Shown here in pieces: positions 4,450-31,128 of a stretch of DNA of 64,000 bases. The notes beneath the pieces were generated by a model that worked only from the letters and a program-made list of their open reading frames with translations, was not told where the DNA came from and ran no database searches. Location of the stretch: positions 7,936,001 to 8,000,000 of the forward strand of contig CM102283.1 of NCBI GenBank assembly GCA_046563655.1, given 5' to 3'. Numbering within the stretch: position 1 is the stretch's first letter; each line of letters opens with the position of its first letter. Source of the stretch: Yuukianura sp. NJ FZ-2021. Taxonomy: Eukaryota. A program made the translations under genes and the position numbers.

Positions 4450-5738
4450 ATGAAAAACGTTTCTTACTGTACGTTTGTGTCATTGCTTCTGCTCGCACCA
4501 ATTGCTTTTGGAAAAGACGAATACAAAAAACTTCCGGATTTAGACACTTATTCATCTGAAGAAGTCAAATTACTTCCAAGGGTAACAAAAATCGGCATTT
4601 TTAAAAAGTACAAAACTTTAGTAGAGAAATTCAGTAGAATGGTTTTTGTTTTTAAAGTTTCGTTCCAGAGTTAAAGATGGACTAACGCATCAGTATATGT
4701 TCCAAGACAAGTATCTCGTTCGATTCCTAAGAGGTGCAAATAGGAACCTAGAAGACGCTGAAAAAATGATACGAGATGTAAAATCATCTTTCTCGAAACC
4801 TCCTTTTGTCTACATTTATTTAAAAAATGTTGTTTTTCGATTCATTTTCCAGAATTTCCGACATAGAAAGCAATACGATTTGGACAACTTGATTATCTTA
4901 CCAAAAAATTTGACAAAATATTCCACTCGCTTTCCCTTCTTTTTCACATGGGCGAAAGACGACCGTCCAAGTAATGCTTCTATACGTTCTCAAAATTTTA
5001 AAATTTTAAAATTCAAAATTTTAAAAAAAATTTTGAAGCACTTGTTGGAGCCTTAAAGGATATTAACATCCGACATATGACTATTACTGGTGAACTTCAA
5101 AGAGTCAAACTCTACATTTTCTATGCCCTGGAACGTGCTGTTTGGAACGTTCACTTGACTGCAAATCGTACAGGACGGGAGATCATTCAAGGATCGTTAG
5201 TTTTCAACATGGCGGGATTCAATCTTAGGAATCAAGCTTGTTTATCCTGCATACCACTTTGGATTGAACTACTGGAAACTTATGAAAAATATTATCCGCA
5301 ACTGGGACATACAATTTTGATTATCAACAGTAAGTTTAAAGCAACAAAGTCAAAGAAAACTTGAAAAAAAATGAATAATTTGACTTTTTGACTTTTTAGC
5401 ACCAAGGATATTTCAAAAGTAAGACAAACATTGGACAGTTTGTGGCAAAAATTACAGGAAAACTTTTTTTCAAAATTTTGAATTTTTTTTATAGTCTTTA
5501 CGTTATACTCAAACCGCTGGCTACTGGACAAACGTTGAACGCTTTAACATTATTCAGCCTGGACAAAACTGAATGGCAACCGGAACTACTCAAATTGTAC
5601 TCGCCCGATCACTTAACTCTAGAATTCGGTGGGACGGCCCCACCACAGCGTCTCTATCCACTCACACCAGAGCACCTCGCCATTCAACTTGGACCAAACT
5701 ATGACAAAGTGCTCAAGAACAAAATCGACGAGAAGTAG
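4450..5738 (+). CDS. SEC14/CRAL-TRIO-like lipid-binding protein 1, with signal peptide
   Basis: Spliced ORF begins MKNVSYCTFVSLLLLAPIAFG. Contains the CRAL-TRIO-N motif YLVRFLRG, then QACLSC, YEKYYPQL and C-terminal LTLEFGGT. Includes a 19-nt micro-exon at 5400-5418. Confidence 0.85.
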
Positions 5739-6409
5739 TGCTGGAGCCCGGTTTTTATAGAAAAGTTTAACAGTTTCCCAGAATCTATCTGTACTAAATG
5801 TGTGAAATTTTAATTAAAATATCATAAAAATGAAGAAAAAAAATGTGTGTTATAGCCTTTGCCATTTTTTAAAAATGTTAGCTCAAGTTGTATTTTCTTT
5901 GATTCTGCTCCAAAGGATGTTCAACCAAAAATTACGCGCTACCCTAAATTTTGAATATGAAGATGATAAATTTTTTTGAATTTTGAAATTTCTGAACAAA
6001 GAAGTGAATTGTAAAACTTACACGTGTGTATATCACTTTTAAATTAATATTTTCTGACCAATGATTACGTAATACAGTCTTATTGACTTTATATTCTCAT
6101 GTTCCTCAAGGTCAGCAAGATCAATTTGCGCTTTCTGGCACAAAGAGATTAAAGGGGAACCTGAAAGTCAGTTCCAAGAAAAACTTGTTACTTTTTTCGT
6201 GAATAATATAAAATTATACATGTATTAAAACGCCTCGTATCTCGTTAAGATCTTAAAACTAAACAGGATTGTTCCAAACTGGATTGTGTTGCCATTTTTT
6301 CCACAATGGTCTGCGTAAAACCACGTTTGCCTTGAACCTGTTCTGTGGTTTTAGAAAAGGTTGGAAGCAACCAGTGCTAATTTCGTAATTGATACACTGA
6401 CAAGGCAGG

Positions 6410-7712
6410 ATGAAAAACGTTTTTTACTTCACGTTTGTGTCATATCTTTTCCTCGCGCCATTTGCTTTTGGAAAAGACGGAATCAAAAAACTTCCGGATT
6501 TGGATACTTATTCATCTGAAGAAATCAAATTACTTCCAAGGGTAAAACAGAAACAAGAAACAAAAATTTTCTGTTACGTCAAGTGAATGTAAAATTTTGA
6601 ATTTTTGAAGCTTCGCTCCAGAGTGAAAGATGGACTGACACAGCAGTATATGTTTCAAGACAAGTATCTAGTTAGATTCCTAAGAGGTGCAAATTGGAAC
6701 GTCGAAGATGCTGAAATAATGATGCGAGACGTAAAACCTCCTTTTTGAAACCAATTTTACTTAAATTTATTTAAAAAACGATGTTTTTGGATTCATTTGC
6801 AGAATTTTCGGTATAGAAAACAATACGATATAGACAACCTAATTATTCTGCCAAAAAATTTGACAAAATATTCTGCTCGCTTTCCATTCCACTTCACTTG
6901 GGCAAAAGACGACCGTCCAAGTAAGACCAAATCAAAAATTCAAAAATTTTCAAATTTCAAAATTCAAAATTTCAAAAACTTTTGTTTCCAAGCACTTGTT
7001 GGAGCCTTGAAGGATATTAACGTCCGGCATATGTCAATCACTGGGGAAGTTAACAGAGTGCGGCTCTACATTTACTATGCCCTGGAACGTGCTGTTTGGA
7101 ACGTTCACTTGACAGCAAATCGCACAGGACGGGAGATAATTCAAGGAACGTTACTTTTCAACATGGCGGGATTCAATCTTAGGAACCAAGCTTGTGTAGC
7201 TTGTATACCACTATGGATTGAACTACTGGAAACTTATGAAAAATATTATCCTCAACTGGGACATACAATTTTGATTATCAACAGTAAGTTATTACGCTTG
7301 AAACACAACAAATTCAAAAAAAAAAAACTTCAAAAAGAATTGAATACTTTTGAGTTTTTAACTTCTTAGCACCAAGGATATTTCAAAAGTAAGGCCAATA
7401 TTGGAAAGTTGGTGACAAGACAAAACTTAGAGGAAAACTATTTCAAAATGTTATTTTTTTTTGTATAGTCTGTTTGTTGTACTTAAACCGCTGGCTACTA
7501 GTCAAACGTTGAACGCAGTCAAATTATTCAGTTTAGACAAAAGTGAATGGCAACCGGAACTACTCAAATTGTACTCGCCCGATCACTTAACTTTGGAATT
7601 CGGTGGGACGGCCCCACCGCAGCGTCTCTATCCACTCACACCAGAGCACCTCGCCATTCAACTTGGACCTAACTATGACAAAGTGCTTAAGAACAAAATC
7701 GACAACACGTAG
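6410..7712 (+). CDS. SEC14/CRAL-TRIO-like protein 2, close paralogue of gene 1
   Basis: Begins MKNVFYFTFVSYLFLAPFAFG. Same exon structure as gene 1, with QACVAC, YEKYYPQL and LTLEFGGT. Confidence 0.85.
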
Positions 7713-8301
7713 TGTTGGAAATAATTTTGACCAGTTTTTATAGAAAAGTTTAACAATTTCCCAGAATCTCAAACTTTCCTTCAAAGTTAAAAAAATGAAA
7801 AAAAAGATAAACCCAATCCTATTCAAGCATTGCCTTAGAATCTGTCGAAACCAATCCATTTTTTCTAATCTTGTACGTTTTCTGTTGTACATTTTTTTTA
7901 AATTGCGCACATTATAGATTCTTGACGCCAACTAATTGCTGGTACTACTTCAATCACTACGTCAATGAAGATCACATTGCAGATTTGAAGGTCACCTGTC
8001 CAGTATTTTTTTTTAACGTGGCGTAGACTCATGCAAGTCTCCTCTCGGTTGATGTTTTACACTTATATTAGTGAAGTTGCAATTCGAACAAGCCCACTAT
8101 TGTGAGAAAAAGTGAAAGCAAATTAAACAGCTACCTATATTTTCTTTCCAGATTTCGCGATAAATCTCGATCTCGTGGCTAATTAAACCGAAAGTTACGC
8201 CTTTCGAACAATAAAAGCTTCAAGTTTTCGAAGTTAGGTATTGCCATTGTGGTTGCAATTTGCGGAATTTTGATATTTTAGTTTTAAAATCAAGCATCAC
8301 A

Positions 8302-9619
8302 ATGCCACTTTCAACCGGCGCTTATTTGGTTCTGTTCTGTTTAATTTTCTGCTCGCTTAACACGGATGCTCAAAAACCCAAGGATTTGGACACGTACACC
8401 AAACAGGAACTGGAATTGCTTCCACAAGTAAATCTAAAAATTTTATAATTAATTATAATATAAAATTATGTTTTATGTTATAATGTAAAAATGTTTTAGC
8501 TTCGGTCAAGAGTTAAAGATGGCCTTACACAACAGTACATGTTCCAGAACAAATACCTCGTACGATTCCTCAGAACCGCACAGTGGAACTTGGACGCTGC
8601 AGAAAATTTACTTCGCGAAGTAAGATTCTCATTTCTGATTTTTTTTTTAGAATTTTTAAAAAATTTCATAACAAAGTTCAAAATATAATTTTCTAGAATT
8701 TTCGCTGGCGTAAGCAACACCGAGTGGACAACTTAATTTTTGATTTTGAACGCGGTGGCTCAAAATTTGCACGCCGATTTCCGTTTCATTTCATTTCTGC
8801 ACGAGACCAACGACCAAGTTAGTGAAAACATGGTTTTACTTTATACAATTTTGCTTACCATAGACAATGCGCATGTGCACAACTTAACTAAACGTTACTT
8901 TTGCGTTTTTAGCAATAGTCAGTGCCATTAAGGATCTGAACGTTCGTCAACTCGTACTTACTGGAGAAGTAGCTGAAATGCGACGTTACATTATCTACGG
9001 AATTGAACGCGCTGTTTGGAACATCCATTTGGAATCAAATCGCACAGGAATGGAAATTATCGAAGGAACTCTCCTGTTCAACATGGCGGGATTCAACGTT
9101 AGAACGCAAGCCTGTGTCGCCTGTCTACCACTTTGGATTGAACTTATAGACTCCTATGAAAAGTACTATCCACAACTTGGCAAGCACATAATCGCAATCA
9201 ACAGTAAGTCTCTAAATCCTAATTAACTATTAAAGTTTAACATTTTAATAACTAAAGTTTTTGTTTCAGTTCCCAGGGTTTTCCATAGGTACGTCAAACT
9301 AATTGAAAAAAATCTCTAAAACCGGTTTTATTTAATTTCTGCACTTCACATTTCCCTAATTCTTTGATTAATCAGATTTTTCACACTGATCAAACCACTA
9401 GCAACTGGACACACACTGGAAGCCCTTGAAATGTACAGCGTTGACAAAAGCGAATGGGAACCGCGTATACTCAAATTGTACTCAAAAGACAAACTGCCGC
9501 TGGAATTCGGTGGTACTGCGCCGCCGCAACACGGTCCGCACAAGCTCTCTCCAGAAGACATGGCAATTCAGCTCGGGCCAAAATTTCAAAAGAAAATACC
9601 ACAAGAAGCAGTTTTTTAA
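8302..9619 (+). CDS. SEC14/CRAL-TRIO-like protein 3
   Basis: Begins MPLSTGAYLVLFCLIFCSLNTDA. Contains YLVRFLRT, QACVAC, YEKYYPQL and LPLEFGGT; exons join in frame. Confidence 0.85.
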
Positions 9620-10592: not shown

Positions 10593-12382
10593 TTATTTGA
10601 CCAATCGTTTTCCTGCTGTCTGTCGTCCAAAGCCCAGTGGTTGTGGTGCCGATTTCTTCTTTCCTTTGCGATCAAGCATAACGGCACGCAGCAGTTCTTT
10701 GTAAATGAGTACTTGACGATTGAGGTCATCACGCTGACTCTTCAGTTCATTGTTGACTTTCTCTAGTGCGTCTTCCTGGATATTGATAATCGCTGCTTGC
10801 AGTTTCTTCTTCTCACGGTACCGTGTGGCAGCAGTTTTATTTTGTTCCTTCTTCCTCTGGGTTTTGTCAGTGTTGCTCGGCAGCCGTGGTTTCTTCATTC
10901 CGCTTGAACCGCTACTGAATCAGAGGAAAAACATAAAAATCAAGTAATCGCTCAAACTTTGATAATTTTACAAATTCTGATGCAATTCACAACGTGAATT
11001 ACATATTCAAAGTGAGCGTCGTTAGACTTTCGAACACAATCAGTCCGATTTTGAGTTAAAATCATCGTTTTTGTATCATATTCGAGACAAGTAAAATTTT
11101 GACATCATTTGTTCACGGTCAATTTAACCAATTACTAATCTAAGCAAAATCAATTTTACCCTCCTACCTTCGTCCACTTTTGACGGTTGGTTCCAGAGAT
11201 CGTTTTCCTCGTTTGTTCGAGTTAGAGGAAGATGCAGGAGATGGAGCAATATGAGTAACTGCTGAGGATGGATCGACAGCGACAACCTCCACTTCCATGT
11301 TGATAGGAAGATACGACTTGGCAGTATTGAGATCTCCTAGAAGTAGCGCATCCAAAATGTTCTCGCAAGTATCATCAGCCGAGTCGATTTCATCTTCCGT
11401 AATTGATGAGGACGGTGAAGATGTTCCAGAGTAACCCGCTCCTTGCTGTGATTGGTTGACATCTAGCCCGATCAACTGAAGTTCAAATTCGTCAAAAGTG
11501 TGTGACTGATCTTCCATTTCTATCAAACTGTCTGCTTCTGATGCATTGCTTTTGTTGTCATCCCCACTGCCGTTGTCATTGCCATTGTTGGATTGGCCAG
11601 CGTCGTCTGATGGTTGGACCAAGTTAAGTTTGATGTCTTCCAGAGAGCAGGGGACAAGCAATTGGATGACTTCAGCATTGTCAATTGTTGTCACTTGAGC
11701 TGAAAGACCAGCCAAAATACTTTGGAACTCTGCCGAGAGTTCTTCGAAGCTATCAGACGGGAATTCTTCGGCTGGACTTGGTTGTGGAGATTCATCGAGC
11801 TGTTGAAGGTGTTCTTGATTTTGGAACTCTTGTGAGTCTGGTGTAAGGGGACGTGTGGTGTGGCAGAGGTCATCAAAGTCCTCCAGATCTTCAAACAGTT
11901 CCAAATTGACCGATTCCTCTCCTTCCCAGGGCATTTCATTCTGATTTTCTGTAAAAATTAGTTCAACAAATATTAGCAAATGTCAAACACCTCAAAGCTG
12001 ATTACTTCAATGACAGTTTTTCAGTATCCTTTTGGTAAAAAATCATAAAACCTTGATTTTCACATTAAGTATTCTCATCACATCGTAAACAAAGTATCAA
12101 TCGATATCTCAACAGTTTTTGTGCAAATAAGCTCTCCAACGTACCATATTGTGAGAAATGATAATCTTCGAATTCTAGATGTTGTAGAAGTTTGGAAGCA
12201 AGCTGAGCTCGGGATGACGGTGAGCAGAGGCCAGCTTCCGATTTGATGTTGTACATAGAACCATCGTCTCCGTGGGCATTTGCGTATAGAGTTGGGGATT
12301 GGGGAGATGGTGAAATTGGTGGGCTAAATTCAGCAGAGGTGGAGAAGTTCTCCACTTGCCAGGAAGCCAATGGCGACTCCAT
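10593..12382 (-). CDS. ATF4: Activating transcription factor 4 (bZIP; cryptocephal orthologue)
   Basis: Exons 12382-12145, 11948-11168 and 10914-10593 join in frame. The basic region RKKEQNKTAATRYREKKK plus leucine zipper is diagnostic of ATF4/ATF5. Acidic, Ser-rich middle region; strong Kozak context GCGCCATGG. Confidence 0.93.
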
Positions 12383-14313
12383 GGCGCTGGTTGTTTCCTT
12401 GATGGAATCCTTGTCGATTACTTGAATTTCCTTGTTGGACAGAATTGTAATTGGAATTACGACTGGAGTTTCGTATGTGATCTTCTGGTATACTTGAATT
12501 GATGTTTTCTGGATCTTCTATAAGAGCGTATAGCTCGTTGCTTGCTGGTTGAAAAAACCTGAAACCAAACATTAAAAAAACGTCAGAATTCGTTTACGTT
12601 TCCCCCATTTAAAGCTAGCCGAGCTTCAGCATCAGTTGATTTCCCAATTAATTCCCTTAAATAAACATTTTCGGCTGTTCAAAATATTTTCCATATTCTT
12701 TATTCATAAATAGCGAATAGAGTGCATTTGATGAAGTCAGATTTACACATCAATTCTGAATAATTAATTGATACTTAAAATCAATTCGATTAGATACCTT
12801 GCTCTCAACTCACGCCGCTTGACGTCACCAGTCTTTTGTTGCTTGGTGACAAGTGATTAATAAACAAACTCACTTCACAGCGAACCGCGTAAAATAAGTA
12901 AGAATGGGATCTGACATGACGCACAAAGCTCCAATAGTATTTAACCATCTACGAGGTTTACAAAATACTGCAAGCATTTTTATCATGCTCAAAATTTCGC
13001 AATGCTGATCTTTGGTTCATCACAAGTCCACAAGTGATGTAGCACATGCCGTTTCTTGGATGGGAAATGGCAACATGATCTTTAGATAACCACAAGGAGT
13101 TTACGTCATAAAAGCCAACAAGTCGCCTGACATGAGAAACGTTAAGAATCGAAATGGTCATATGACAAGAGAAGACAAGTAAGCAACATCGCTATTCACT
13201 TCTGAAGGATAACTGAAAGTCAAGTGCAAGGACGGGCATCGTTGGACCTCGAAACTGGAATCTGGCTAGTTTTAAGGCCAGGCTGGACCTTGAGTTTTGC
13301 GCATGAACAGTAGGGATGTCACCTGCTGTAAGTGGTCAGCCTCGTAATCAAGATGTATTCAAACAGTGTACGTACTATTTACTCACACTGATAAGTGACG
13401 GACCAACATAACTCCTGAACTCAATGATCCAAAAAACCGAACTGACATGTATCATTGAATGACGTCAAAAAATGAATCGGTTAGAATAGAAGTGTACGTA
13501 CACGTAGAATTAGTAAGTGGTACTACCCAACACACTAAAGCCTATCATTTCCTGACGTCTATCATTTCCCTCGTAGTTATAGTGCTTCAACTTTACATCT
13601 TTGCAAACTGAAATGACTGCAGGGGGAACAGAATGACATGCAGAGGATTTGCGTCTGCTTGGATTGGCATGAAATTGCATGTCACGAATGGCAGATACAA
13701 GATGGAAGTATGGCAACTTTGGTTTGTGCAAAAAAGAAAAGGAGACACAGAGAGTTAGACATGGCGGCAATTGGAAGGGAAGGCAGTGACTGTCCTCGTT
13801 CTTTGTCCTCCTATTGGAATGAGATTAAACATTAAAGCACTTGAGATCCAAACGTAATGTAAACGTTTCACTTTACAGATTAGGTATGTTAGGCCACCAT
13901 TCCTTCCCATCAACGCCTGCATCACTTAAAAGCATAACCTGTTTTTAGTTTGCATGTAAAGCTCAATGTAGGTGGCTCAGCCTCCATTTTGTAAATCCTA
14001 ATCCGGTGTACTTGTACAGAACGAACCACAAATCGCAAGCAACCTTCGGAATTGAATTCAGCAGCATGGTAATGTCTAACCTCATCAGGATTACATGCCG
14101 TGACCTCTTTGAATAAAATCCAATGGAAACTAGCCTTGCTAAAGTTTCGCTATGCTACACCTTACAAACTAGGAGTAAAGAGACAAAAGTGGGTACTTAC
14201 GCCATGATGAAAATGGTTGAAGTGTACCGCCGCGGTTGCGGGGAGTTGGTTTGTTTGGAGTTAACTATGAACCCATTGTTAATCGGTTAAGCTTGGAGTC
14301 CTTAGACGTCCAT
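12330..14313 (-). promoter_or_regulatory. ATF4 5' leader with three uORFs
   Basis: uORF1 ATG GAC GTC TAA (14313-14302) and uORF2 ATG GGT TCA TAG (14276-14265). uORF3 is ATG GC|gtaagt (14205-14201) spliced to ag|G TTT TTT CAA at 12558; it runs 77 codons and stops at 12330, out of frame across the ATF4 ATG at 12382. Confidence 0.8.
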
Positions 14314-17991: not shown

Positions 17992-19394
17992 ATGGCTTCC
18001 ATGTATTATTCCAGAAGTATAGTGCTACTATTTGTAATGTACAGTATGGTTCAAAGTACACCAGACACCAGTGTGTACACAGAACGAGAGAAAACGCTAA
18101 TTCGACAGGTAATGACTGTACAAACAAAATTAAACACACAAAATTTTCTTTTACCAAAACGCAATAACAAAAATTTAGCAACTTTTTTCTTGTTCAGTTG
18201 CGTGGTAGAGTAAAAAAAGATTTGACGCAACCGATAATGTTCGAAGACAACTATTTGATACGTTACATTCGAGGTAAGAAAAAAAAATGCCAGATTTTTT
18301 CAATTTCAATTTTTAAACAGAGAATTCGATTTTCTTTTACATATTTTTTTTCAATCTCAGCCGGGAATCATGATCTTAATCAAGCAGAGAGAATGATACA
18401 GCGAGTAAGTTTTTAACCTTGAAGTGCCAAAAAGTATCAAAAAGTGTCAAAAGCCTAACAAAAAATTGTTCAAAAAAATTTTATGTGTTATGTTTTTTTT
18501 TTGCTAATTTACATAGACTTTAGCATGGCGCCGAGAGGAGAACATGGACAAAATATTTAGCGAGGATTTTTCAAAGTGGATTACGGCCTATCCATTTACA
18601 CTTAACATTGCGGATTATCAAGGAAAGCTAGGTAGGCCACGCCCATACGCCACTTTTTGCACATACGTAGTTATGTAATACTAAAAGTTGATTTTTTCTA
18701 AAACATAATACAGTTCTTGCTACTTCTCTTGGATCGATTGATGTAAGAAAACTTGTGCTGGGTGGGAAGCAAAAGGAACTGGATCGCTACTTGGCTTATG
18801 GATTTGAACGTGGTTTGTACAATGTTCAACAAGGATTTAACAAAACTGGAACCATCGATGGATATTTACTGTTCAACATGGCCGGCTACAACGCCAGGAC
18901 ACATGCCTGTTTAGCATGTAATTTTTAATACGATTATTTTAAAGTTTGTTTGAATTTGGTTTGAGATTTTTAGAAAATTTTTCCTTCTAGGTCTTCCGAG
19001 TTGGCTTAAGTTGGCCGTGAATTATGAGAACCATTATCCACAACTTTGTACTAAAGTTATTTCCGTGAATAGTAAGTTTCATTGAACTTTTCCAAAATTT
19101 CAAAATTTACAACTTGTTTTGGGTTTTATTGCAGCTCCGAGAATTTTTGATGCTTTGTTGGAAATTGTAAAACCTGCACTCACTTCGCGAACAATTCAAA
19201 TTATTAAATTGTACGACTACAACAAAGCTCATTGGAAAAGGGAGTTGTTTAAAACTTTTCCTGAAACTTCTTTAACGCCAGAATTTGGTGGAACAGGACC
19301 AGTTATACATGCTAAAAGTTTACATGATCAAAATTATGAACAGATCATCAACTACAACGTAGGAGTCATAAACATCCGTAGTTTCGGAAAATGA
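17992..19394 (+). CDS. SEC14/CRAL-TRIO-like protein 4
   Basis: Begins MASMYYSRSIVLLFVMYSMVQS. Contains YLIRYIR, HACLAC, YENHYPQL and LTPEFGGT. Confidence 0.85.
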
Positions 19395-20153: not shown

Positions 20154-22418
20154 ATGCATCAATCGCGTAAATTCGTAGCTGAATTGATCGTCGTTTATAG
20201 CTTTATTTTGATTTTTACATTTGTCCAAAGTGGAAAACCAGAAATAAATTCAAGTTTCTTTACGGAACGGGAGAAAATATTAGTCAAACAGGTAATTTAC
20301 CACACAAAAAAAAATTCGGAAAAGCGAATTTCTATGTTTTTTTTTCACAAAATTTTAACAAATTTTTGTTTAAAGTTACACGGCAAAGTAAAACACTCTT
20401 TGACTCAACCCCTTATGCATGAAGATTACTACCTAATTCGGTTTCTTCGCGGTAAATAAACACTATTTGAAAACTAAAGTGAAAATTTTGGAAAATGAAA
20501 ATTTTTTGATTCAAATTGGTTCAAAGAATTCAAAATCAAAGTTTTAAATTGGTTGAATACAGCTCAACATCATCGATTGGACGATGCAGAGGAAATGATA
20601 CGTAAGGTAAACAACTAAAACGTGTTTTAGCGGTTTACTCAAACAATCAATATACAGTGGATTCTCTAAATAAGGGAAAAAATCACGATTGGAGGATTGG
20701 TAGTAGGCGCCTCCCCCAGTACCGTAAGATTTCTGGTAAACGGTCAGTTATATGGAATTTAAGGCTAGGAACACCATTCTAATGAAAATTTCCTGTTTCG
20801 AAGTTCAGAGTATATAATTAATATTAATATACATAATATTCATATATTAATGCTAATTATATGTGATATCTATATACTAATCAATATTATATGGTATATT
20901 ATATGCAAATTACGCTGTGAATGTCACCCTTATTAAACAGGTTATATAATATAATATATTATTTACAGTGCGCTGTTGCGCAGGTTGTGCGCTGTTGCGC
21001 AGGTTGTGCGCTGTTGCGCAGGTTGTGCGCTGTTGCGCAGGTTGTGCGCTGTTGCGCAGGTTGTGCGCTGTTGCGCAGGTTGTGCGCTGTTGCGCAGGCT
21101 GTGCGCTGTTGCGCAGGTTGTGCGCTGTTGCGCAGGTTGTGCGCTGTTGCGCAGGTTGTGCGCTGTTGCGCAGGCTGTGCGCTGTTGCGCAGGCTGTGCG
21201 CTGTTGCGCAGGTTGTGCGCTGTTGCGCAGGTTGTGCGCTGTTGCGCAGGCTGTGCGCTGATGCGCAGTTTGTGCGCAGATATATATATAATATATATAT
21301 TAATATTAGTTAATTCCATTTAATTATCTAATTACTTTTGTTTCGCACCAAAAAAAATTAACCAAAAAAAACAATCGTAAAAAATAAGCCGATAAACTGA
21401 AACATACGTTCCCTCCAAAATTAAAACTTTACGGTACCGCGACTTCGAGTGAAAGTGAGAAAGAGGAGGAGCTCCTGTCCCTTATTTAGAGAATCCACTG
21501 TAATTACTAAACTTTAAAATTTTAGCAACAAAATTGTATTTTTGCTTAGAATTTAGCTTGGCGCCGAAGTGAAAACATCGATTCAATATTTTCCGAGGAT
21601 TGGTCATACTGGTTGGAACGTATGCTTCCACTTACACTAAACATTGCCGATTTCCAAGGAAGACCAGGTTTCGTAACTTTAATTTCAATTTTTTTTTTTA
21701 AAATGTAAATTTTTTTTTTTGAATTTAGCCATTACTGGTCGACTTGGACAACTTGATATTCGCAAACTAATTTTGAGTGGAAAGCAGGCTGAATTTGATC
21801 GTTTCATTGTCTATGCTTTTGAACGTGCTCTGTATAAAGTTCAACAAGGATTTAACAAAACTCGGATCATCGATGGTTATTTGCTCTTTGACCTTATCGG
21901 CTACACTCCAAAAACTCATGCCTGCTTAGCTTGTGAGGAAATTAGTACTCCAAATTGTACAAAAATTAAACAGAAACTTAATTTTAACTTTTTGTTTCAA
22001 GGTATACCAAGGTTAGTCAAGCTAGTTGTTAACTATGAAAACTACTATCCACAACTTGCTGCAAAACTTATAGTTGTGAACAGTGAGTCCAAATTATCAA
22101 AACCAAATTTTCAAATTTGTTGGTGCTTGTGTTGAATTTTGACTTAAAAAGAAATGTTGCCGTTGCTTTTCAGCTCCAAGAATTTTCGAAGATTTGCTGG
22201 AAATTTTGAAATCCGTACTCTCTGAACATACACAAAAAATTTTGAAATTGTACGACTACAATAAGGGAAGTTGGTCACGTGAACTTTTCAAATTATTTCC
22301 AAAAGACGTTCTTCCACAAGCATTTGGCGGAACTGGCCCATTCATTCCCATCAAAAGCTTACATAACCAAAATTTTACACAAATTATCTACTACAACACA
22401 GAAAAAATAAAACCATAA
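20154..22418 (+). CDS. SEC14/CRAL-TRIO-like protein 5; one intron is expanded by a MITE
   Basis: Begins MHQSRKFVAELIVVYSFILIFTFVQS. Contains YLIRFLR, HACLAC, YENYYPQL and LPQAFGGT. Confidence 0.85.
20655..21500. mobile_element. Tc1/mariner-superfamily (pogo/Tigger-like) MITE, 846 bp, carrying an internal minisatellite
   Basis: Perfect 23-bp TIR CAGTGGATTCTCTAAATAAGGGA (20655-20677) and its reverse complement (21478-21500), with TA on both sides. Absent from the equivalent short intron of paralogue 6. Confidence 0.9.
20968..21278. repeat. GC-rich 19-bp tandem repeat (GTGCGCTGTTGCGCAGGTT), about 16 copies
   Basis: Direct inspection. It produces the spurious 19-aa-periodic Cys/Arg ORFs in several frames. 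Confidence 0.95.
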
Positions 22419-23259: not shown

Positions 23260-24648
23260 ATGCATCAATCGTGTAAATTCTTAGCTGAATTACTCGTCGT
23301 TTTTAGTTTCATTTTGATTTTTGCGTTTGTTCAAAGTGGAAAACCAGAAACAGATGCAAGTTTCTTTACGGAACGGGAAAAAATATTAGTCAAACAGGTA
23401 ATTTACCACAAAAAAAAATTCAGAAAAGCGAATTTGGTTTTTTACAAAATGTTAACAAATTTTTGTTTGAAGTTACGCGGTAAAGTAAAACACTTTTTGA
23501 CTCAACCCATCATGCACGAAGATTACTACCTAATTCGATTTCTTCGCGGTAAATAGACTTTATTTAAAAACTAAAAGAGAAAATTTTTAATTCACATTTT
23601 CCGTTGTAATTTGGTTGAATACAGCTCAACATCACCGATTGGATGATGCAGAACAAATGATACATAGGGTAGACGCTTTACACATATAATTTACAAAAAT
23701 TATAAAATTTCAAAATTTCATAAGAAATGTCACTTGGTCCGCGTTTAGAATTTAGCTTGGCGCCGAAGTGAAAACATGGATTCAATATTTTCCGAGGATT
23801 GGTCATACTGGTTGGAACGTATGGTTCCACTTACACTTAACGTTGCAGATTTCCAAGGAAGACGAGGTATGACTATACACTTAGTCAAATTTTCCAAAAA
23901 TCTAAAAAAAAATTTTTTTTTTAAATGTAGCCATTACTGGTCGACTTGGACAAATTGATATCCGCAAAATTATTCTGAATGGAAAGCAGGCTGACTTCGA
24001 TCGTTTCATTACCTATGCTTTAGAACGTGCTCTGTACAATGTACAACAAGGATTTAACAAAACAGGGATCATCGATGGCTATTTGCTTTTTGACCTCATC
24101 GGCTACACTCCAAGAACTCATGCCTGCTTAGCTTGTAAAAATTTTAAAATTTTTACAGACTAAAATTTTAAAATAAAAATTTTAAAAAGATACTGTAAAT
24201 TAAACAAAAAGTTAATTTTGAATTTTGTGTTTTCAGGTATACCAAGTTGGGTCAAGCTAGTTGTTAACTATGAAAACTACTATCCACAACTCGGTGCAAA
24301 ACTTATAGTTGTGAACAGTGAGTCCAAATTTTATCAAAACGCATTTTCAAAATTGCTGGTGTTGAATTTTGACTTAGAAAAAAATGTTGTCGTTGCTTTT
24401 CAGCTCCAAGAATTTTCGAAACTTTGCTGGACATTTTGAAATCGGTACTCTCTGAGCATACACAAAAAATTTTGAAATTGTACGACTACAACAAGGGAAG
24501 TTGGTCACGCGAACTTTTCAAAATATTTCCAAAAGACGTTCTTCCACAAGCATTTGGCGGAACTGGCCCATACATTCCTATCAAAAGTTTACATAACCAA
24601 AATTTTACAAAAATTATTTACTACAACACAGAAAAAATAAAGTCTTAA
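23260..24648 (+). CDS. SEC14/CRAL-TRIO-like protein 6, recent duplicate of gene 5
   Basis: Begins MHQSCKFLAELLVVFSFILIFAFVQS. Exons are near-identical to gene 5, with HACLAC and LPQAFGGT. Confidence 0.85.
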
Positions 24649-25326: not shown

Positions 25327-26708
25327 ATGGCGCCGAAATTTAAAATACAAACGTTACTTATTGTACTTTTTATCGTGTTTACTTGTGCTTACTATTCAGA
25401 GTGCAACAACTTCAAGGAATACACACCACAAGAGCGGATATTAATTCCAGAAGTAAAGACAAACATTTTAAACAAAACATTTTCTATTTAGAACATTTTG
25501 TTAAATAATTTTTTTAATAAAATTTCAGCTGTACAAACGAGTACGACTAAACTTAACACAAGATGTGATGCATGAAGACATTTACCTTGTTAGATACTTG
25601 AGAGGTTAAAATTTTTATGTTCTTTTTAGGAAAAAAAATTTTTTTTGTCTTACCTATGAAGAAAAACTAATTTTTTACGTTTTTTACACTTTTAGCTCAA
25701 CACCACAACGTTGACAAGGCAGAGACGATGATTCATACCGTAAGTTTCTATTAGTACTTTCTAAGTAAATTAGGATTTTGTAATATTATGTTGTAATTGA
25801 TTTAATTAAGGCTTTGAAATGGAGGAGAGAAAACAAAATAGACTCGATATTGGACGAAGACTGGTCATTTTGGATGCGGAAAATGCCATTTATAGACAAT
25901 TTTGTGGATTTTGATGGCCGTCCAGGTACGCAAAAAGGAAATTAAAATTTGAAAAACAGTTTTAAAAACTTAATTTTTAAATTTTAAGCTCTGGGGGGTA
26001 GCATGGGAAATACTGACATTCGGAGGTTTACGATACATGGCCACGGTGACCAACTACTGCGCTACGTAACGTTTATTTTGGAGCATGCCCTACACGGTCT
26101 GTCTGTAACTTCAAAAGTGGCGGGAAAAGACTACGTTGATGGATACGTCCTATTTGATTTTGCCGGTTTCGATCACCGTAGACATCTTTGCCAAGCTTGT
26201 AAGCTCAACGTATTCAATGTATAATATAAATAATATAAAATAAATAATAATATAAATAAATAATCTAAGACTAATTATTACACGTTGTATTAGGTATTGC
26301 ACTTTGGATGCGGTTATTGGAAATTTATGAAAACTACTATCCATATATGGGGCGTAGAATTTTTGTTGTCAATGGTGAGTCAAAGTTTTGAAACCTTTCA
26401 AAATTAAGTCAAAATTCTTTACTTAAGCATTTCCGTTTTACTTAAATTTAGTTCCGAGAATTCTTCCAAACTCACATGCTTACGGAAAAGTTATTGCCCA
26501 ACATTCATTCATAAAATCACTGCGATTATATGATTTTGACAAAGGGATTTGGGCAAAAGAACTTTTGAAAATATTTCCTGAAGATGTTCTCACCCGAGAA
26601 TTCGGAGGAACTGCGCCTGTCCAGTTTGTCAAAGTACAGAAACCCACACCACGTCCTCATTTCTACGACAAATTTAATACAAATAAGGCAAATCATACTA
26701 AAACGTAA
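25327..26708 (+). CDS. SEC14/CRAL-TRIO-like protein 7
   Basis: Begins MAPKFKIQTLLIVLFIVFTCAYYSEC. Contains YLVRYLR, HLCQAC, YENYYPYM and LTREFGGT; stop TAA at 26706-26708. Confidence 0.82.
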
Positions 26709-26748
26709 GTACTTCAGTAGCCTGACGTGTCTGTTTTTTGAAAACGAC

Positions 26749-27440: not shown

Positions 27441-28892
27441 ATGGCGCCTAGAGTCAATAGATTTGTATTCAATTGCTTGTTAATAGTTTTAAGTGTTTCT
27501 TACTCAAAGTGTGATGAATACACACGAGAAGAAAAAATGTTGATTCCAAAGGTCAGTTTTTTCATGTTCTCACAAAATTATTGTTACAATATTCAACCTA
27601 CTATCTATTCGATTTTACTACATAAAAGTTTGATAAATGTGATTTTACAGCTTTACAGAAGAGTGAAAATGAACTTAACACAAGATGTGATGCACGAAAA
27701 TATTTATCTCGTCAGATACTTAAGAGGTTTGAAATTTAAACTGTTTTGATAGTTTTGAAAGTTTTAAAAAAATAGGATTCCATTGTTATTCTTTCTTAAA
27801 TTTTAGCTCAACATAACAACGTCGATAGAGCAGAGGCTATGCTGCACAGAGTAAGTTTTGACATTAAAAAAATTCGTTCAAATTGTGCTGCGAACTTAGA
27901 AATACTTTTGAATTTTTGAAGACTTTGGAATGGAGAAAAGAAAACAAGATGGATTCAATTTTGACTGAAAATTGGGCTGGATGGATTCGCAGAGTGCCTT
28001 TTAGTGACACCTTCGTGGACTTTGACGGACGCCCAAGTACAACATTTTATAAATTATACTGAAATCATATTATAATTTTAATCTTTTAATTATATTAATT
28101 ATAAATATATTATTTAATTAAATTAATATAATGAATAACTTTCTAGGTCTTGGTTTGAGCATGGCTTTCATGGACGTACGCAAGTTTTTAATCGCTGGAC
28201 GAGGTGAAGAATTCCTACGCTACTTGACGTTTATTCTTGAGCATGCGCTGCACGGCCTCTCTGCTGTAGCACATGCCGCTGGAACAGATCTCGTCGATGG
28301 ATACGCCATGCTGAACTTTGCTGGATTCGACTATCGGAAACATCTTTGCCATCCTTGTAAGCTTATTTAACTTATTAACTAACCTTAAACCCAAACATTT
28401 CATGTACAGACAGAAGGACAGACAGACAGAGTGAGCTAAAGTGGCTTTAAATAACATTTTTTTCTTCAGGTATTCCGTTGTGGCAAAAGTTCTTAAACAT
28501 TTTTGAGAGCCACTATCCGTTTATCGCACGCTCAATTTTTGTCGTCAACGGTAAGTGTTTTGCAACAACAAAATCATTTTCTGTTGAGTTTTTAAATATG
28601 CTTTGATCAAAATTTAAAATTCTAAATTTTAGCTCCAAGAATCTTGCCTAATTTGCGCAAACTTTATCCAAATGATTTTGGATATCTGCATACTATCGAA
28701 ATAGTGCGAGTATTTGATTTTGACAAAGGGGCTTGGAGCCGGGAACTTTTGAAAATATTTCCAAAAGACGTTCTGACAACAGAATTTGGTGGTACTGCGC
28801 AAACGCAATACGTTCAAACACAATACCCCACGGCACGCCCAAATTTCCATAAGTACATCTATCCTCCAAAGTTAAACGCAACGAAAGTTTAA
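27441..28892 (+). CDS. SEC14/CRAL-TRIO-like protein 8
   Basis: Begins MAPRVNRFVFNCLLIVLSVSYSKC. Contains YLVRYLR, HLCHPC, FESHYPF and LTTEFGGT. Confidence 0.83.
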
Positions 28893-29321
28893 ATCATATT
28901 TATATTATACTTACAACTGATATTATATTCTACATGTATTACAAAATGAAATCAAGTAATGATAAACATTGCTTCAGTTTTTGTTTGTAAGTGCCCGTGT
29001 ATTTCTGTAGAATCTTACGAAATTTGAAGGTGAAACCAGTTTTCTATTCTCATCTAATTGAAAAAATGTATGGTAGGTAAACAAAAAAATGTCAAGAAAA
29101 AACACGTTTTAATTAACCAAAATTTCGCAACGACAATTTAGCTAATGATTTCCATTAGGGTTCCAGCTCTCGCAGGTTTCCACTTTATTTAATAACATCC
29201 TGTAAAGACGAAATATAGCTTCAAATTTCTTCAAATTTTCCAAATTTTCTGATTTCCAATATAGTCATTTACTTTTTCAAATTAGATATAATTGAAATTG
29301 AAACCAAAATACTGTTTTTAA

Positions 29322-31128
29322 ATGGTGCTAACGTTTAGCGCTCAAACAATTTTTACTATTTTGGTTCTTTTTGGAGCCATTTTGAATTCAAAATGTGACG
29401 AGTACACACGAGAAGAGCGAATTTTGATTCCAAAGGTGAGGAGATTCCTGTTCAATAGAAATTTAGTTTAACAACTTTTAAATATTATGCGTTTAATTGT
29501 AATTCATTAACTTTAATTTATTCTGTTTCTAGCTTTACAGAAGAGTAAAGATGAATTTGACACAAGATGTGATGCACGAAGACATTTTCCTCGTCAGATA
29601 CTTAAGAGGTTCGAAATTAATAGAAATGTACCATCATATATAAAATTTTCAAAAAAAAACATCGCTGTGAAATTTTTTTTAAATTTCATTTCTTGATTAA
29701 TTTCAGCTCAGCAACACAACATCGACTCAGCAGAAGCTATGCTTTATCGGGTATTTTCTTAGCTTTGTAAATTAAGTTACAAGCAAAATTTAATGCTTCC
29801 GGGCGCATGCCCAGTGTACGCAAATTTTTTTTATTTTACATAGCATGTATACTACAAATATTTTATGGTAGACTTTACAATGGCGAAAAGAAAATAACAT
29901 TGATTCCATTTTGGACGAGGATTGGTCTGCCTGGATTCGGAGAATTCCGTTTGCCGATAACATTGTTGACTACAACGGGCGTCCAGGTACACACAAAACA
30001 TTATTGTAATTATATCGGGTGTTCCAAAAGTAAGTTTTGCCGTTTTTCTCCCTGTGTAACTTCTCCATCTCATCTCCCATCTTCCACCATGGAGTTCTTG
30101 AAGCTTATGAGTTTTGTACAGAGACAGATGAAACTTACTTTTGGAACACCCGATACTATTGTATTGTATTGTGTATAGGATTAAATTATGTTATAATATG
30201 CTAGGTATCGCCGCAAGTGTAGTTCATTTTGACATTAGGAAGTTTTCATTGGCTGGTCGATTAGAGGAACTACTACGGTACGGAGCATTTGTTTTGGAGC
30301 ATGCGCTCCACGGTCTTTCAGGAACTTCAAAAGTGGCGGGAAAAAATTACACTGATGGCTACGTATTACTTAATGCAGCAGGATTCAATGAACGACAAAT
30401 TATTTGTCAGCCTTGTGAGTTATGATAAATACAAAAACTTAGGTTAAGCGACGATAGCATTACTACAATTAACTAAACATAATTAAATCAGTTACATTTA
30501 TTTAATTTCGTGTAGGTCGACTATTTTGGTTGCGCCTTTTGCACGTATACGAGAACTACTATCCATACTTGGGCAGAAAAATATTCGTCGTCAATGGTTA
30601 AATTAAACTTAGACTAATTAATTTCGTAGTAGGGCAATAGCCCGAAAACCAGAAGAGCGAATTCGACAAGTTGGCAACAATGCAACTATGTCAACAATGT
30701 CATTGAGTTTCAACGGTATGGTTTTTAAATGGTGTGGGCTAAGTTGCATTGATAATGCAGTGTTGCCAACTTGCTGAATTCGCACTTATAATTGTCGCGC
30801 TAATGCCCTGGAACTATTAATTTTACTTAAAATTCATATAATAAATATATTTAATTGTGAATTCAATGCAGCTCCAAGAATTTTGCCCCAAGCGGATGCA
30901 ATTGTAAAGGGAGTTGGTATACATACACTTACCATTATTGAGACGTACGACTTTGATAAGGGATACTGGAGCCGGGAACTTTTGAAAACATTTCCAGAAG
31001 ATGTTCTCACAACTGAATTTGGCGGAACTGCGTCGACGCAGTACGTTCAAACACAACGACCCACGCCACGCCCCAATTTCTACAACAAACTAATCAACCA
31101 TAACAAATCTAATGCTGCTAAAATTTAA
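29322..31128 (+). CDS. SEC14/CRAL-TRIO-like protein 9
   Basis: The first exon, MVLTFSAQTIFTILVLFGAILNSKC, is not in the ORF track. Contains FLVRYLR, IICQPC, YENYYPYL and LTTEFGGT. Confidence 0.82.
30015..30153. mobile_element. Mariner-like MITE (139 bp) in an intron of SEC14-like gene 9
   Basis: 23-bp TIR TCGGGTGTTCCAAAAGTAAGTTT and AAACTTACTTTTGGAACACCCGA, flanked by TA on both sides. Confidence 0.85.
30630..30810. mobile_element. Degenerate fold-back element/MITE in the last intron of SEC14-like gene 9
   Basis: Long imperfect inverted arms: TAGGGCAATAGCCCGA...GCGAATTCGACAAGTTGGCAACA versus TGTTGCCAACTTGCTGAATTCGC...TCGCGCTAATGCCCTG. No clear TSD. Confidence 0.6.

What the first reader, a model, noticed from the sequence alone, without database searches (positions are those of the whole stretch)
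4450..31128. Nine-member family of apparently SECRETED SEC14/CRAL-TRIO lipid-transfer proteins
Seen in sequence: every one of the nine paralogues begins with a short n-region, a hydrophobic h-region and a small-residue cleavage site (e.g. ...LAPIAFG|K, ...LNTDA|Q, ...FVQS|G, ...YSKC|D). These leaders differ in sequence but keep the same character. All carry N-X-S/T sequons (NLT, NRT, NKT, NFT, NAT, NHT, NYT), and none has a GOLD domain or a TM anchor. Established: SEC14, alpha-TTP, CRALBP and pinta-type proteins are cytosolic lipid shuttles without signal peptides. Inference: this is a lineage-specific radiation of extracellular lipid carriers, for example for cuticular lipid delivery, moulting fluid, or haemolymph/gut lipid or vitamin transport. 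I know of no characterisation of such a group.
Basis: partly seen in the sequence, partly recalled or inferred. Interest (0 to 1): 0.85.

Follow-up and report, generated by a model that had tools for sequence, protein, structure and literature searches.

The report
Nine secreted-type SEC14 lipid-carrier genes
A tandem cluster of nine genes encodes lipid-binding proteins of a type that normally works inside the cell but here carries export signals, pointing to a little-noticed family of probably extracellular lipid carriers in small arthropods.

Summary
Window 4450-31128 (+ strand) contains nine intact paralogues of 298-307 aa. All 51 introns are GT-AG, and there are three subgroups (g1-3, g4-6, g7-9). 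Each gene starts with a Met followed by a hydrophobic core of 11-17 residues. None has another membrane-like segment or a GOLD domain. They are single-domain SEC14/CRAL-TRIO proteins, and the nearest solved structures are human SEC14L2/3/4.

The leader is not a local oddity. An exhaustive profile search built from an internal exon, without the leader, found only 192 relatives. Of the 55 that are at least 240 aa, 52 carry the same kind of leader. These relatives and the window genes share an invariant CxxC. Of 62 family rows, 44 have an N-x-S/T site in one loop, against about 0.05 expected. Leaderless relatives have neither feature.

The only named relative comes from a springtail. Springtail genome papers report "Sec14-like" as their largest gene-family expansion but discuss it only in terms of cytosolic Sec14 function. 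My searches found no mention of a signal peptide.

Best reading: these are secretory-pathway, probably extracellular, carriers of hydrophobic ligands. Secretion itself is inferred. SignalP, structure prediction and expression data were not available. I class it as a new variant of a known kind, with moderate to high interest.

The parts
4450..5738 (+). g1, 307 aa, 6 exons: 4450-4581, 4658-4777, 4853-4970, 5039-5329, 5400-5418 (19-nt microexon), 5495-5738. Leader codons 4450-4512; CxxC 5239-5250; loop sequon NRT 5164-5172.
   Evidence: Model. Leader. Family HMM 244 bits. Feature coordinates. An in-frame ATG 21 nt upstream (4429) would only lengthen the n-region.
6410..7712 (+). g2, 307 aa, 6 exons: 6410-6541, 6611-6730, 6803-6920, 6993-7283, 7370-7388, 7469-7712. 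Leader 6410-6472; CxxC 7193-7204; NRT 7118-7126.
   Evidence: Exon 2 alone scores 27.6 bits on Pfam CRAL_TRIO_N, cut-off 23. 88% aa identity to g1.
8302..9619 (+). g3, 306 aa, 6 exons: 8302-8427, 8500-8619, 8697-8817, 8913-9203, 9270-9288, 9376-9619. Leader 8302-8370; CxxC 9113-9124; NRT 9038-9046.
   Evidence: 48% identical over 268 aa to the full-length database protein P0001, which also has a leader.
17992..19394 (+). g4, 298 aa, 7 exons: 17992-18108, 18198-18273, 18361-18404, 18517-18631, 18714-18917, 18991-19071, 19135-19394. Leader 17992-18057. CxxC spans the exon 5/6 junction (18908-18992). NKT 18839-18847.
   Evidence: The last exon scores 25.3 bits on Pfam CRAL_TRIO, cut-off 22.6.
20154..22418 (+). 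g5, 301 aa, 7 exons: 20154-20291, 20376-20451, 20563-20606, 21550-21667, 21729-21932, 22002-22082, 22174-22418. Leader 20154-20231; CxxC 21923-22003; NKT 21854-21862. Intron 3 (943 nt) holds a 19-bp x 16 tandem repeat.
   Evidence: Last exon 25.9 bits on CRAL_TRIO.
23260..24648 (+). g6, 301 aa, 7 exons: 23260-23397, 23473-23548, 23625-23668, 23749-23866, 23931-24134, 24237-24317, 24404-24648. Leader 23260-23337; CxxC 24125-24238; NKT 24056-24064.
   Evidence: Last exon 25.2 bits on CRAL_TRIO. 88% aa identity to g5.
25327..26708 (+). g7, 302 aa, 7 exons: 25327-25452, 25529-25604, 25696-25739, 25811-25925, 25989-26198, 26294-26374, 26452-26708. Leader 25327-25389; CxxC 26189-26295; no loop sequon.
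27441..28892 (+). g8, 298 aa, 7 exons: 27441-27551, 27651-27726, 27807-27850, 27922-28036, 28147-28356, 28470-28550, 28633-28892. Leader 27441-27506; CxxC 28347-28471; no loop sequon.
29322..31128 (+). g9, 298 aa, 7 exons: 29322-29435, 29533-29608, 29707-29750, 29872-29986, 30205-30414, 30516-30596, 30872-31128. Leader 29322-29390; CxxC 30405-30517; NYT 30345-30353.

Best explanation
The nine genes are tandem duplicates from a distinct arthropod subfamily of single-domain SEC14/CRAL-TRIO proteins that has been redirected into the secretory pathway.

Shown:
- Each protein is a complete CRAL_TRIO_N + CRAL_TRIO module, closest to human SEC14L2/3/4 but without their GOLD domain.
- Each is preceded, in the same first exon, by a fast-evolving hydrophobic leader.
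- The subfamily is marked by an invariant CxxC and a strongly enriched N-x-S/T site in one loop.
- The genes are under purifying selection.

Inferred:
- The leader is a cleavable signal peptide that takes the nascent chain into the ER.
- In the ER the loop Asn is glycosylated (in 7 of the 9) and the CxxC is oxidised to a local disulfide at the start of a helix.
- The basic protein of roughly 32-34 kDa, which has no KDEL-type ending and no anchor, is released from the cell.
- Outside the cell the gated SEC14 pocket holds one hydrophobic molecule (lipid, terpenoid, vitamin, semiochemical or lipophilic xenobiotic) and carries it through an aqueous fluid such as haemolymph, gut lumen or moulting/cuticular fluid.
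- The three diverged subgroups probably differ in ligand.
For: Gene models: nine intact ORFs, 51 of 51 introns GT-AG, and four intron positions shared by all nine.

Fold:
- An exon-level profile hits SEC14L4, collinear with its residues 104-193 and 196-246.
- The profile of 52 full-length relatives hits SEC14L4/L2/L3 at E = 3e-47 to 4e-40, matching profile positions 34-274 to residues 8-246.
- The nine spliced proteins score 225-264 bits on that same profile, end to end.
- Pfam CRAL_TRIO was found in 22 of 22 relatives scanned (22 of the 150 listed hits). GOLD_2 was found only in the leaderless P0137.
- Direct Pfam hits above cut-off on window exons: g2 exon 2 (CRAL_TRIO_N) and the last exons of g4, g5 and g6 (CRAL_TRIO).

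Leader:
- Present in 9 of 9 window genes.
- Present in 52 of 55 hits of at least 240 aa, although the search profile covered only residues of about 123-220 and so could not select for a leader.
- Solved cytosolic homologues align from their residue 8 onward, so they have no counterpart of the first 33 profile positions.
- The Atlas model of the springtail relative P0151 superposes on SEC14L-type clusters only from residue 32-35 onward.
- The leader's amino-acid divergence exceeds that of the rest of the protein (dN 0.43-1.2 against 0.28-0.32 in the older pairs) while hydrophobicity is retained.

Marks of the ER lumen:
- The two CxxC cysteines are the only invariant columns in 61 and in 52 aligned sequences, and they are absent from P0077, P0137 and P0139.
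- A sequon lies in the loop before the central strand in 44 of 62 family rows, against about 0.05 expected, and in 0 of 3 leaderless rows.
- None of the 62 ends in a KDEL-like motif.

Functional genes: dN/dS is 0.16-0.26 in 7 of 7 pairs tested.

mRNA support (indirect): P0001 (314 aa, with leader) and P0104 (324 aa) are uninterrupted ORFs on contigs of 1235 and 1183 bases. The window homologues have 5-6 introns.
Against: - No dedicated signal-peptide predictor, no transcript data for this locus and no protein-level data were available.
- In 6 of 9 leaders (g1, g3, g5, g6, g7, g9) a 19-residue window exceeds the 1.6 hydropathy threshold used for membrane spans, so an uncleaved signal anchor cannot be excluded by my rule-based test.
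- g3 and g9 have no positive charge before the core.
- Total sequon numbers are no more than chance (median 1 per relative), and g7 and g8 lack the loop sequon.
- The CxxC enrichment among hits is partly built in, because the search profile contained it.
- Only 3-4 leaderless relatives were available as a contrast.
- A disulfide, glycosylation, secretion and any ligand are all inferred.
Confidence: 0.6

Rival explanations
1. The proteins enter the secretory pathway but stay inside the cell, in the ER/Golgi lumen, lysosomes, lamellar bodies or secretory granules. There they would handle lipids on the lumenal side and would not act as extracellular carriers.
For: Every feature that points to ER entry (leader, CxxC, loop sequon) fits this reading equally well. 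Nothing here shows release from the cell. The Toxoplasma precedent acts in a vacuolar compartment (review passage).
Against: None of the 62 family proteins has a KDEL/HDEL-type ending. There is no membrane anchor or second hydrophobic segment. A family reported at 154 copies in one springtail (PMC5490193) looks more like a diversified carrier repertoire than organelle housekeeping; this last point is inference.
Confidence: 0.2
2. The leader is an uncleaved signal anchor. The proteins would then be type II membrane proteins with the SEC14 domain tethered at the lumenal or outer face.
For: 19-residue windows with hydropathy above 1.6 occur in 6 of 9 leaders. The uncharged runs reach 21-23 residues in g3 and g9.
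Against: The cores free of charged and strongly polar residues are only 11-17 residues long in the nine genes. The family median is 13.5 (range 7-21), which is short for a membrane span. Each core is followed by small residues at -3/-1. The leaders diverge faster than the rest of the protein, as cleaved peptides do.
Confidence: 0.12
3. The leaders are artefacts of my gene models or of ORF calling. The real proteins would start elsewhere and be ordinary cytosolic SEC14-like proteins.
For: No transcript evidence exists for this locus. First exons are the least certain part of any ab initio model. The springtail genome papers discuss their Sec14-like genes only in terms of cytosolic Sec14 function.
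Against: - The leader shares its exon with about 20 residues that align to the first helix of SEC14L4 (profile position 34 = residue 8).
- In 8 of 9 genes the chosen ATG is the only in-frame ATG between the upstream stop and the leader.
- 52 of 55 independent database relatives have a leader too, including uninterrupted ORFs on short contigs.
- The first downstream Met in g1 lies at residue 58, inside the domain.
Confidence: 0.05

Closest known systems
Human SEC14L2 / SEC14L3 / SEC14L4 (tocopherol-associated protein / supernatant protein factor group; PDB 1olm, 4omj, 4uyb, 4tlg)
   Same: These are the best solved matches of the family profile (E 3e-47 to 4e-40). The match covers CRAL_TRIO_N plus CRAL_TRIO from residue 8 to 246. 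The window exons map collinearly onto SEC14L4. SEC14L3 has itself been described as a 45-kDa secretory protein of olfactory and airway epithelium (as cited in PMC5952171; passages read).
   Different: The human proteins have a C-terminal GOLD domain and no N-terminal leader. At the CxxC positions SEC14L4 has W165 and A168, and it has no sequon in the loop (alignment). The window proteins end 25-35 residues after the CRAL-TRIO domain.
'Sec14-like' gene-family expansion of springtails (Folsomia candida 154 genes; Orchesella cincta lineage-specific clusters)
   Same: The only named relative retrieved is an Orchesella dallaii protein with the same leader, CxxC and loop sequon. The Atlas neighbours of that protein are arthropod clusters of 88, 55 and 82 members. 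The window's tandem array and its G+C of 0.32-0.44 are in keeping with the 37.5% reported for F. candida (PMC5490193).
   Different: The papers discuss the family only in terms of cytosolic Sec14 function: trafficking, phosphoinositide and transport roles (passages read). The three genome papers contain the term 'signal peptide' zero times (occurrence counts). I could not compare their sequences with the window, and I have not shown that the window is from a springtail.
TgSEC14-LTP1 of Toxoplasma gondii
   Same: It is a SEC14/CRAL-TRIO protein exported through the secretory pathway that moves lipids in an extracytosolic space (review passages in PMC13440885). A figure legend in PMC10543664 includes a symbol for signal peptide among the domains drawn for apicomplexan Sec14-like proteins.
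   Different: It is apicomplexan and works in the dense-granule and parasitophorous-vacuole setting. The original paper is not held and no sequence comparison was made here. It shows only that the fold can work outside the cytosol.
alpha-TTP, CRALBP and pinta-type CRAL-TRIO proteins
   Same: Same superfamily and the same single-domain size class.
   Different: They match the family profile far less well (about 1e-18 to 2e-19, against 1e-47 for SEC14L) and only from profile position 59-61 onward. They have no leader.
Extracellular hydrophobic-ligand carriers of arthropods (odorant-binding proteins, NPC2/ML 'group 2 allergens', lipocalins, takeout/JHBP)
   Same: They share the proposed working principle: a small secreted soluble protein with one hydrophobic pocket, encoded by large tandem families. 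Group 2 allergens are co-expanded with Sec14-like genes in F. candida (PMC5490193).
   Different: The folds are unrelated. The parallel is functional, and it is inferred.

Membership tests
SEC14 / CRAL-TRIO superfamily (Pfam PF00650) | Significant match to the CRAL_TRIO domain model over its full length | tested here: met
   Spliced window proteins cannot be handed to the Pfam tool, so the test is stepwise.
- Single exons: the last exons of g4, g5 and g6 score 25.3, 25.9 and 25.2 bits (cut-off 22.6). Exon 4 of g1 and g2 scores 19 and 17.9 bits, below cut-off. 12 of the 24 CRAL_TRIO-domain exon/ORF translations gave no CRAL_TRIO hit (the three exon-2 translations are listed under PF03765).
- The nine spliced proteins match the HMM of 52 relatives at 225-264 bits.
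- 22 of 22 scanned relatives carry PF00650 at 52-105 bits.
- That HMM hits SEC14L4 at 3e-47.
SEC14 / CRAL-TRIO superfamily (Pfam PF03765) | N-terminal helical CRAL_TRIO_N region before the lipid-binding domain | tested here: met
   Exon 2 of g2 scores 27.6 bits (cut-off 23). Exon 2 of g1 and g3 scores 19.5 and 21.0 bits, below cut-off. 14 of 22 relatives match at E <= 0.01, 5 of them at or above cut-off. The family profile aligns to SEC14L4 from residue 8.
SEC14 / CRAL-TRIO superfamily | Closed hydrophobic pocket with a helical gate that binds one lipid | not testable with these tools
The Atlas model of the relative P0151 superposes on SEC14L clusters at TM 0.78-0.80. No ligand test is possible.
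SEC14L2/3/4 (TAP/SPF) subfamily | C-terminal GOLD domain after the CRAL-TRIO domain | tested here: not met
   The window proteins end 25-35 residues after the conserved GG of the domain. 0 of 20 leader-bearing relatives scanned have GOLD; only the leaderless P0137 has it.
SEC14L2/3/4 (TAP/SPF) subfamily | No N-terminal signal sequence (cytosolic synthesis) | tested here: not met
   9 of 9 window proteins have a hydrophobic leader upstream of the residues that align to SEC14L4 residue 8.
Classical secretory proteins with a cleavable signal peptide | n-region, hydrophobic core of about 7-15 residues, and small residues at -3/-1 | tested here: inconclusive
   A rule-based test is passed by 9 of 9 window proteins: cores of 11-17 residues and at least one -3/-1 site each. 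However, g3 and g9 have no charged n-region. In addition, 6 of 9 leaders also pass a crude membrane-span threshold. SignalP/DeepTMHMM were not available.
Leader + CxxC CRAL-TRIO subfamily (defined here) | Invariant C-x-x-C at the end of the central strand, aligned to W165..A168 of SEC14L4 | tested here: met
   Present in 9 of 9 window proteins, 52 of 52 full-length relatives and 145 of 150 listed hits. Absent from 3 of 3 leaderless hits. In g4-g9 the second Cys codon is rebuilt across the exon 5/6 splice.
Leader + CxxC CRAL-TRIO subfamily (defined here) | N-x-S/T in the loop before the central strand | tested here: met
   Present in 44 of 62 family rows, including 7 of 9 window genes (not g7 or g8). 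About 0.05 is expected per loop from the background rate. 0 of 3 leaderless rows have it.
Springtail 'Sec14-like' expansion (Faddeeva-Vakhrusheva et al. 2016, 2017) | Orthology with the published F. candida / O. cincta gene clusters | not tested
   No sequences of those clusters were within reach. The two held supplementary files of PMC5490193 contain neither 'Sec14' nor 'CRAL'. The only link is the Orchesella dallaii relative P0151.

The most novel reading that the evidence does not exclude
The 'Sec14-like' genes reported as the largest gene-family expansion of springtail genomes would not be cytosolic trafficking factors. They would instead be a large repertoire of secreted, disulfide-stapled, N-glycosylated SEC14-fold carriers. 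This would be an extracellular lipid, terpenoid, semiochemical or xenobiotic transport system built on a fold otherwise known almost only from the cytosol, playing in these arthropods the part that odorant-binding proteins, NPC2 proteins or lipocalins play elsewhere. The nine genes here would be one tandem block of that system, with three ligand classes.
Probability: 0.4. Interest if true: 0.78.

Novelty: new variant of a known kind. Interest (0 to 1): 0.62.

Why it matters
SEC14/CRAL-TRIO proteins are textbook cytosolic lipid-exchange proteins. A whole clade with export signals, an invariant cysteine pair and a conserved glycosylation site would show that the fold has been taken outside the cell on a large scale.

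It would also change how a prominent result of springtail genomics is read. The top expanded, stress-responsive 'Sec14-like' family is currently explained by yeast-type Golgi trafficking.

It would point to candidate carriers for the water-insoluble molecules these animals must move through body fluids and onto the cuticle. The question is directly testable with a handful of recombinant proteins.

Tried and rejected
- Word-based homologue search with g1 exon 4 (longer proteins): no hit.
- The same tool with P0001 returned only P0001 itself. With the 52-sequence alignment it returned four proteins, of which one was named.
- Rfam on the whole window: 0 matches, so there were no RNA genes to help with taxonomy.
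Names and sources of the 150 relatives therefore stayed unknown, apart from those.
- The Atlas did not hold P0001. It did hold P0151.
- Total sequon count as evidence for secretion: rejected, because it is at chance level.
- Extra copies or pseudogenes in the window: none found.
- KDEL-type retention signal: none.
- Literature searches that returned nothing on point:
  - 'CRAL-TRIO' + 'signal peptide' + 'secreted'
  - 'CRAL_TRIO' + 'signal peptide'
  - 'Sec14-like' + 'signal peptide' + 'hemolymph'
  - six phrases of the type 'secreted Sec14' (one review only)
  - 'CRAL-TRIO' + 'secretome' + 'arthropod' (0 papers)
- The original TgSEC14-LTP1 paper is not held.
The genome-contig collection (bacteria and archaea) was not used, being irrelevant to an animal gene family.
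- The organism of the window was not established.

Full report
WHAT IS THERE. The window looks like compact animal DNA. G+C is 0.32-0.44, introns are short and Rfam finds no RNA genes. A stop-to-stop ORF list for 4000-32000 shows repeated CRAL-TRIO-like exon fragments on the + strand.

I assembled the first gene by hand from the sequence. A tblastn search with its protein found nine collinear loci and nothing convincing elsewhere. I resolved every junction by listing all GT/AG pairs that keep the frame open and choosing those consistent among paralogues. The result is nine models of 298-307 aa, each with a single terminal stop and with 51 of 51 introns GT..AG.

The genes fall into three subgroups, g1-3, g4-6 and g7-9. 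Identity is 55-88% within subgroups and 31-41% between them.

A scan of all six-frame ORFs with the family HMM found no significant piece outside the nine gene spans. The array is interrupted between g3 and g4 by a bZIP gene on the - strand and a Reeler-domain gene on the + strand.

THE LEADERS. All nine proteins begin with Met and then an uncharged run of 15-23 residues. That run contains a core of 11-17 residues free of charged and strongly polar residues, followed by small residues at -3/-1. No later 19-residue window exceeds a mean hydropathy of 1.2, so there is no second membrane segment or hydrophobic tail.

In 8 of 9 genes the chosen ATG is the only in-frame ATG between the upstream stop and the leader. 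In g1 a second ATG 21 nt upstream would only lengthen the n-region.

A simple leader test is passed by 58 of 62 family N-termini, by 271 of 2356 internal windows of the same proteins and by 0 of 4 leaderless relatives. This test is rule-based and no dedicated predictor was available. In 6 of 9 leaders a 19-residue window also passes a crude membrane-span threshold, so cleavage is inferred rather than shown.

WHAT THE PROTEINS ARE. Because spliced sequences cannot be handed to the library tools, I tested exons and profiles.
- Pfam on single exons is patchy. CRAL_TRIO_N is above cut-off for g2 exon 2 (27.6 bits) and below it for g1 and g3. CRAL_TRIO is above cut-off for the last exons of g4, g5 and g6 and below cut-off or absent for the others.
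- Profiles of the exon-4 region (A1) and of the last exon (A2) hit human SEC14L4 collinearly, at residues 104-193 and 196-246.
- A profile of 52 full-length relatives (A3) hits SEC14L4, SEC14L2 and SEC14L3 at 3e-47 to 4e-40, yeast Sec14 at about 4e-33, and CRALBP and alpha-TTP only at about 1e-18 to 2e-19.
- The nine spliced proteins match that profile end to end at 225-264 bits.
- The proteins stop 25-35 residues after the domain, so there is no GOLD domain. Among 22 relatives scanned, GOLD_2 appears only in the leaderless P0137.

THE WIDER FAMILY. This is the main new result. The exhaustive search of 1.84 billion representatives used A1, a 95-position profile that covers about residues 123-220 and therefore holds no leader. 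It found only 192 proteins at E <= 0.001, of which 150 were listed. Ordinary SEC14 proteins mostly do not reach this threshold, so this is a distinct subfamily. Many hits are exon-sized fragments. The closest are 74% identical to g4 and 68% to g3 over a single exon, and the best full-length hit, P0001, is 48% identical to g3. The window's own genome is therefore not in that library.

Of the 55 hits of at least 240 aa, 52 have a hydrophobic N-terminal leader. The three that do not (P0077, P0137, P0139) are a tandem-duplicated protein, a GOLD-bearing protein and a 636-aa protein. Because the query could not select for N-termini, this is independent evidence that the leader belongs to the family.

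Two further marks go with the leader.
- The two cysteines of a CxxC are the only invariant columns among the nine window proteins plus 52 relatives and among the 52 relatives alone. They align to W165 and A168 of SEC14L4 and are missing from the three leaderless hits. Since the query contained the CxxC, its frequency among hits (145 of 150) is partly built in.
- An N-x-S/T lies in the loop just before the central strand in 44 of 62 family rows, where the background rate predicts about 0.05. It is present in 7 of 9 window genes and in 0 of 3 leaderless rows.

None of the 62 family proteins ends in a KDEL-type signal.

EVOLUTION OF THE ARRAY. On a quick maximum-likelihood tree of 62 rows (9 window proteins, 52 relatives of 240-340 aa and P0137 as outgroup; fragments left out), the nine window proteins and P0001 form one clade (SH-aLRT 99). 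P0001 is sister to g1-3 (99), and g4-6 and g7-9 are sisters (95). The first split in the array is therefore older than the separation from P0001's organism, while the later copies are local tandem duplicates.

Four intron positions are shared by all nine genes. g4-9 have two more, and g1-3 have one private intron that creates a 19-nt microexon. In g4-9 the second Cys codon of the CxxC is rebuilt across a splice junction.

dN/dS is 0.16-0.26 in all seven pairs tested. In the older pairs the leader changes faster at the protein level than the rest (dN 0.43-1.2 against 0.28-0.32) yet stays hydrophobic.

The predicted mature proteins are 32-34 kDa with pI 9.0-9.5. They have two cysteines in g1-3, g5 and g6, and three in g4 and g7-9 (cleavage sites assumed).

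WHOSE GENES, AND WHAT IS IN PRINT. The only relative with an organism name is P0151 from the springtail Orchesella dallaii, called 'CRAL-TRIO domain-containing protein' in UniRef. It has the leader, the CxxC and the loop sequon. Its nearest Atlas clusters are arthropod (88, 55 and 82 members). Its stored model superposes on SEC14L-type clusters only from residue 32-35 onward, at TM 0.78-0.80. The window is thus probably arthropod, perhaps a springtail, but this is not shown.

Passages I read in three springtail genome papers say the following.
- Sec14-like proteins are the largest expanded family in Folsomia candida (154 genes), far above any other hexapod, and are among the families with stress-responsive members. 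The family is introduced through yeast Sec14's cytosolic role (PMC5490193).
- SEC14-like proteins are among the largest lineage-specific families in Orchesella cincta (PMC4987106).
- The expansion recurs in other strains and species (PMC10087712).

These three papers hold the term 'signal peptide' zero times (occurrence counts). The two held supplementary files of PMC5490193 contain neither 'Sec14' nor 'CRAL', so I did not see the per-species counts.

Searches for secreted or signal-peptide-bearing CRAL-TRIO proteins gave nothing on arthropods. They did surface two precedents outside the cytosol. One is TgSEC14-LTP1 of Toxoplasma (review passages; original not held). The other is SEC14L3 as a '45-kDa secretory protein' of olfactory and airway epithelium (passages in PMC5952171). 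The statement that the secreted nature of this arthropod family is not in print rests on these searches of an open-access library only.

HOW IT MOST LIKELY WORKS. The shown facts are a complete SEC14L-like lipid-binding module, a conserved-in-kind leader, an invariant CxxC, an enriched loop sequon and purifying selection.

The rest is inferred. The leader would act as a cleavable signal peptide. The protein would fold in the ER, where the loop Asn is glycosylated and the CxxC oxidised. Having no retention signal or anchor, it would leave the cell. Outside, the gated pocket would carry one hydrophobic molecule through an aqueous fluid.

The ligand is unknown. The closeness to the SEC14L group makes isoprenoid-type lipids a reasonable guess, since from recall that group binds squalene, tocopherol and phospholipids. 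Springtail cuticles are, also from recall, coated with unusual terpenoid lipids. The reported stress responsiveness of the family would also fit binding of lipophilic xenobiotics.

g7-9 differ strongly from the others in the segment after the conserved N-x-P-R motif. By homology this segment is in or near the gate region, which is again consistent with different ligands.

Three rivals remain: lumenal residents of the secretory pathway, uncleaved signal anchors and gene-model artefacts. They are weighed in their own sections. The first two cannot be excluded with the tools at hand.

LIMITS. The following were not available:
- a signal-peptide predictor;
- transcript or protein data;
- names for most relatives;
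- the metagenome and viral contig collections, which were closed.

VERDICT. It is a new variant of a known kind. The gene-family expansion is already in print, but the export signal and its two companion marks are, as far as I could search, unremarked.

Noticed in passing
window 32870-34712 and 35328-37188 (+): There are two tandem catalase genes, 94% identical over 371 aa (Pfam Catalase 515 bits). Both can be spliced from a conserved 46-nt first exon (ATG 32870-32915 joined to 33115; ATG 35328-35373 joined to 35568; GTAAGT donors). That exon adds a short hydrophobic, signal-peptide-like N-terminus. These may be secreted catalases, but the model is unverified.
   Followed up: partly
window 16175-17520 (+): A Reeler-domain gene (Pfam 47 bits) lies inside the array gap. 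It also starts with a hydrophobic leader, so it gives a second example in this window of a gene whose product begins with such a leader.
   Followed up: partly
window 10593-12517 (-): A bZIP transcription-factor gene (Pfam bZIP_1, 29.5 bits on the last ORF) lies on the opposite strand between g3 and g4. From recall its basic region looks ATF4-like. This was not tested.
   Followed up: no
window 20968-21277 (+), inside intron 3 of g5: A 19-bp unit is repeated 16.3 times with 97% matches. This lengthens the intron to 943 nt, against 80 nt in the sister gene g6.
   Followed up: partly
window 5400-5418, 7370-7388, 9270-9288 (+): A 19-nt microexon is conserved in g1-g3 and is 100% identical between g1 and g2. 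It was created by an intron private to this subgroup and is easy for gene finders to miss.
   Followed up: yes
g7 25327-25452, g8 27441-27551, g9 29322-29435 (exon 1): g7-g9 share a conserved Cys right at the predicted cleavage region. Depending on the true site, the mature protein keeps a third, unpaired Cys, which could form a dimer, or loses it.
   Followed up: no
window 1253-3288, 37836-42178, 45618-48859, 55398-57458, 59540-60888 (+): The flanking genes are ordinary animal genes. They include a large multi-pass membrane ORF (not examined), a helicase with AAA_12, a family-116 glucosylceramidase, GWT1/PIG-W and a prolyl oligopeptidase. None has an evident link to the array.
   Followed up: partly
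database relatives P0002-P0009 and others: Many of the best relatives are 59-165-aa fragments that match single exons of the window genes (up to 74% identity). They look like exon-sized ORFs called on intron-bearing DNA of related species, so counts of family members in such libraries are inflated and fragmented.
   Followed up: partly
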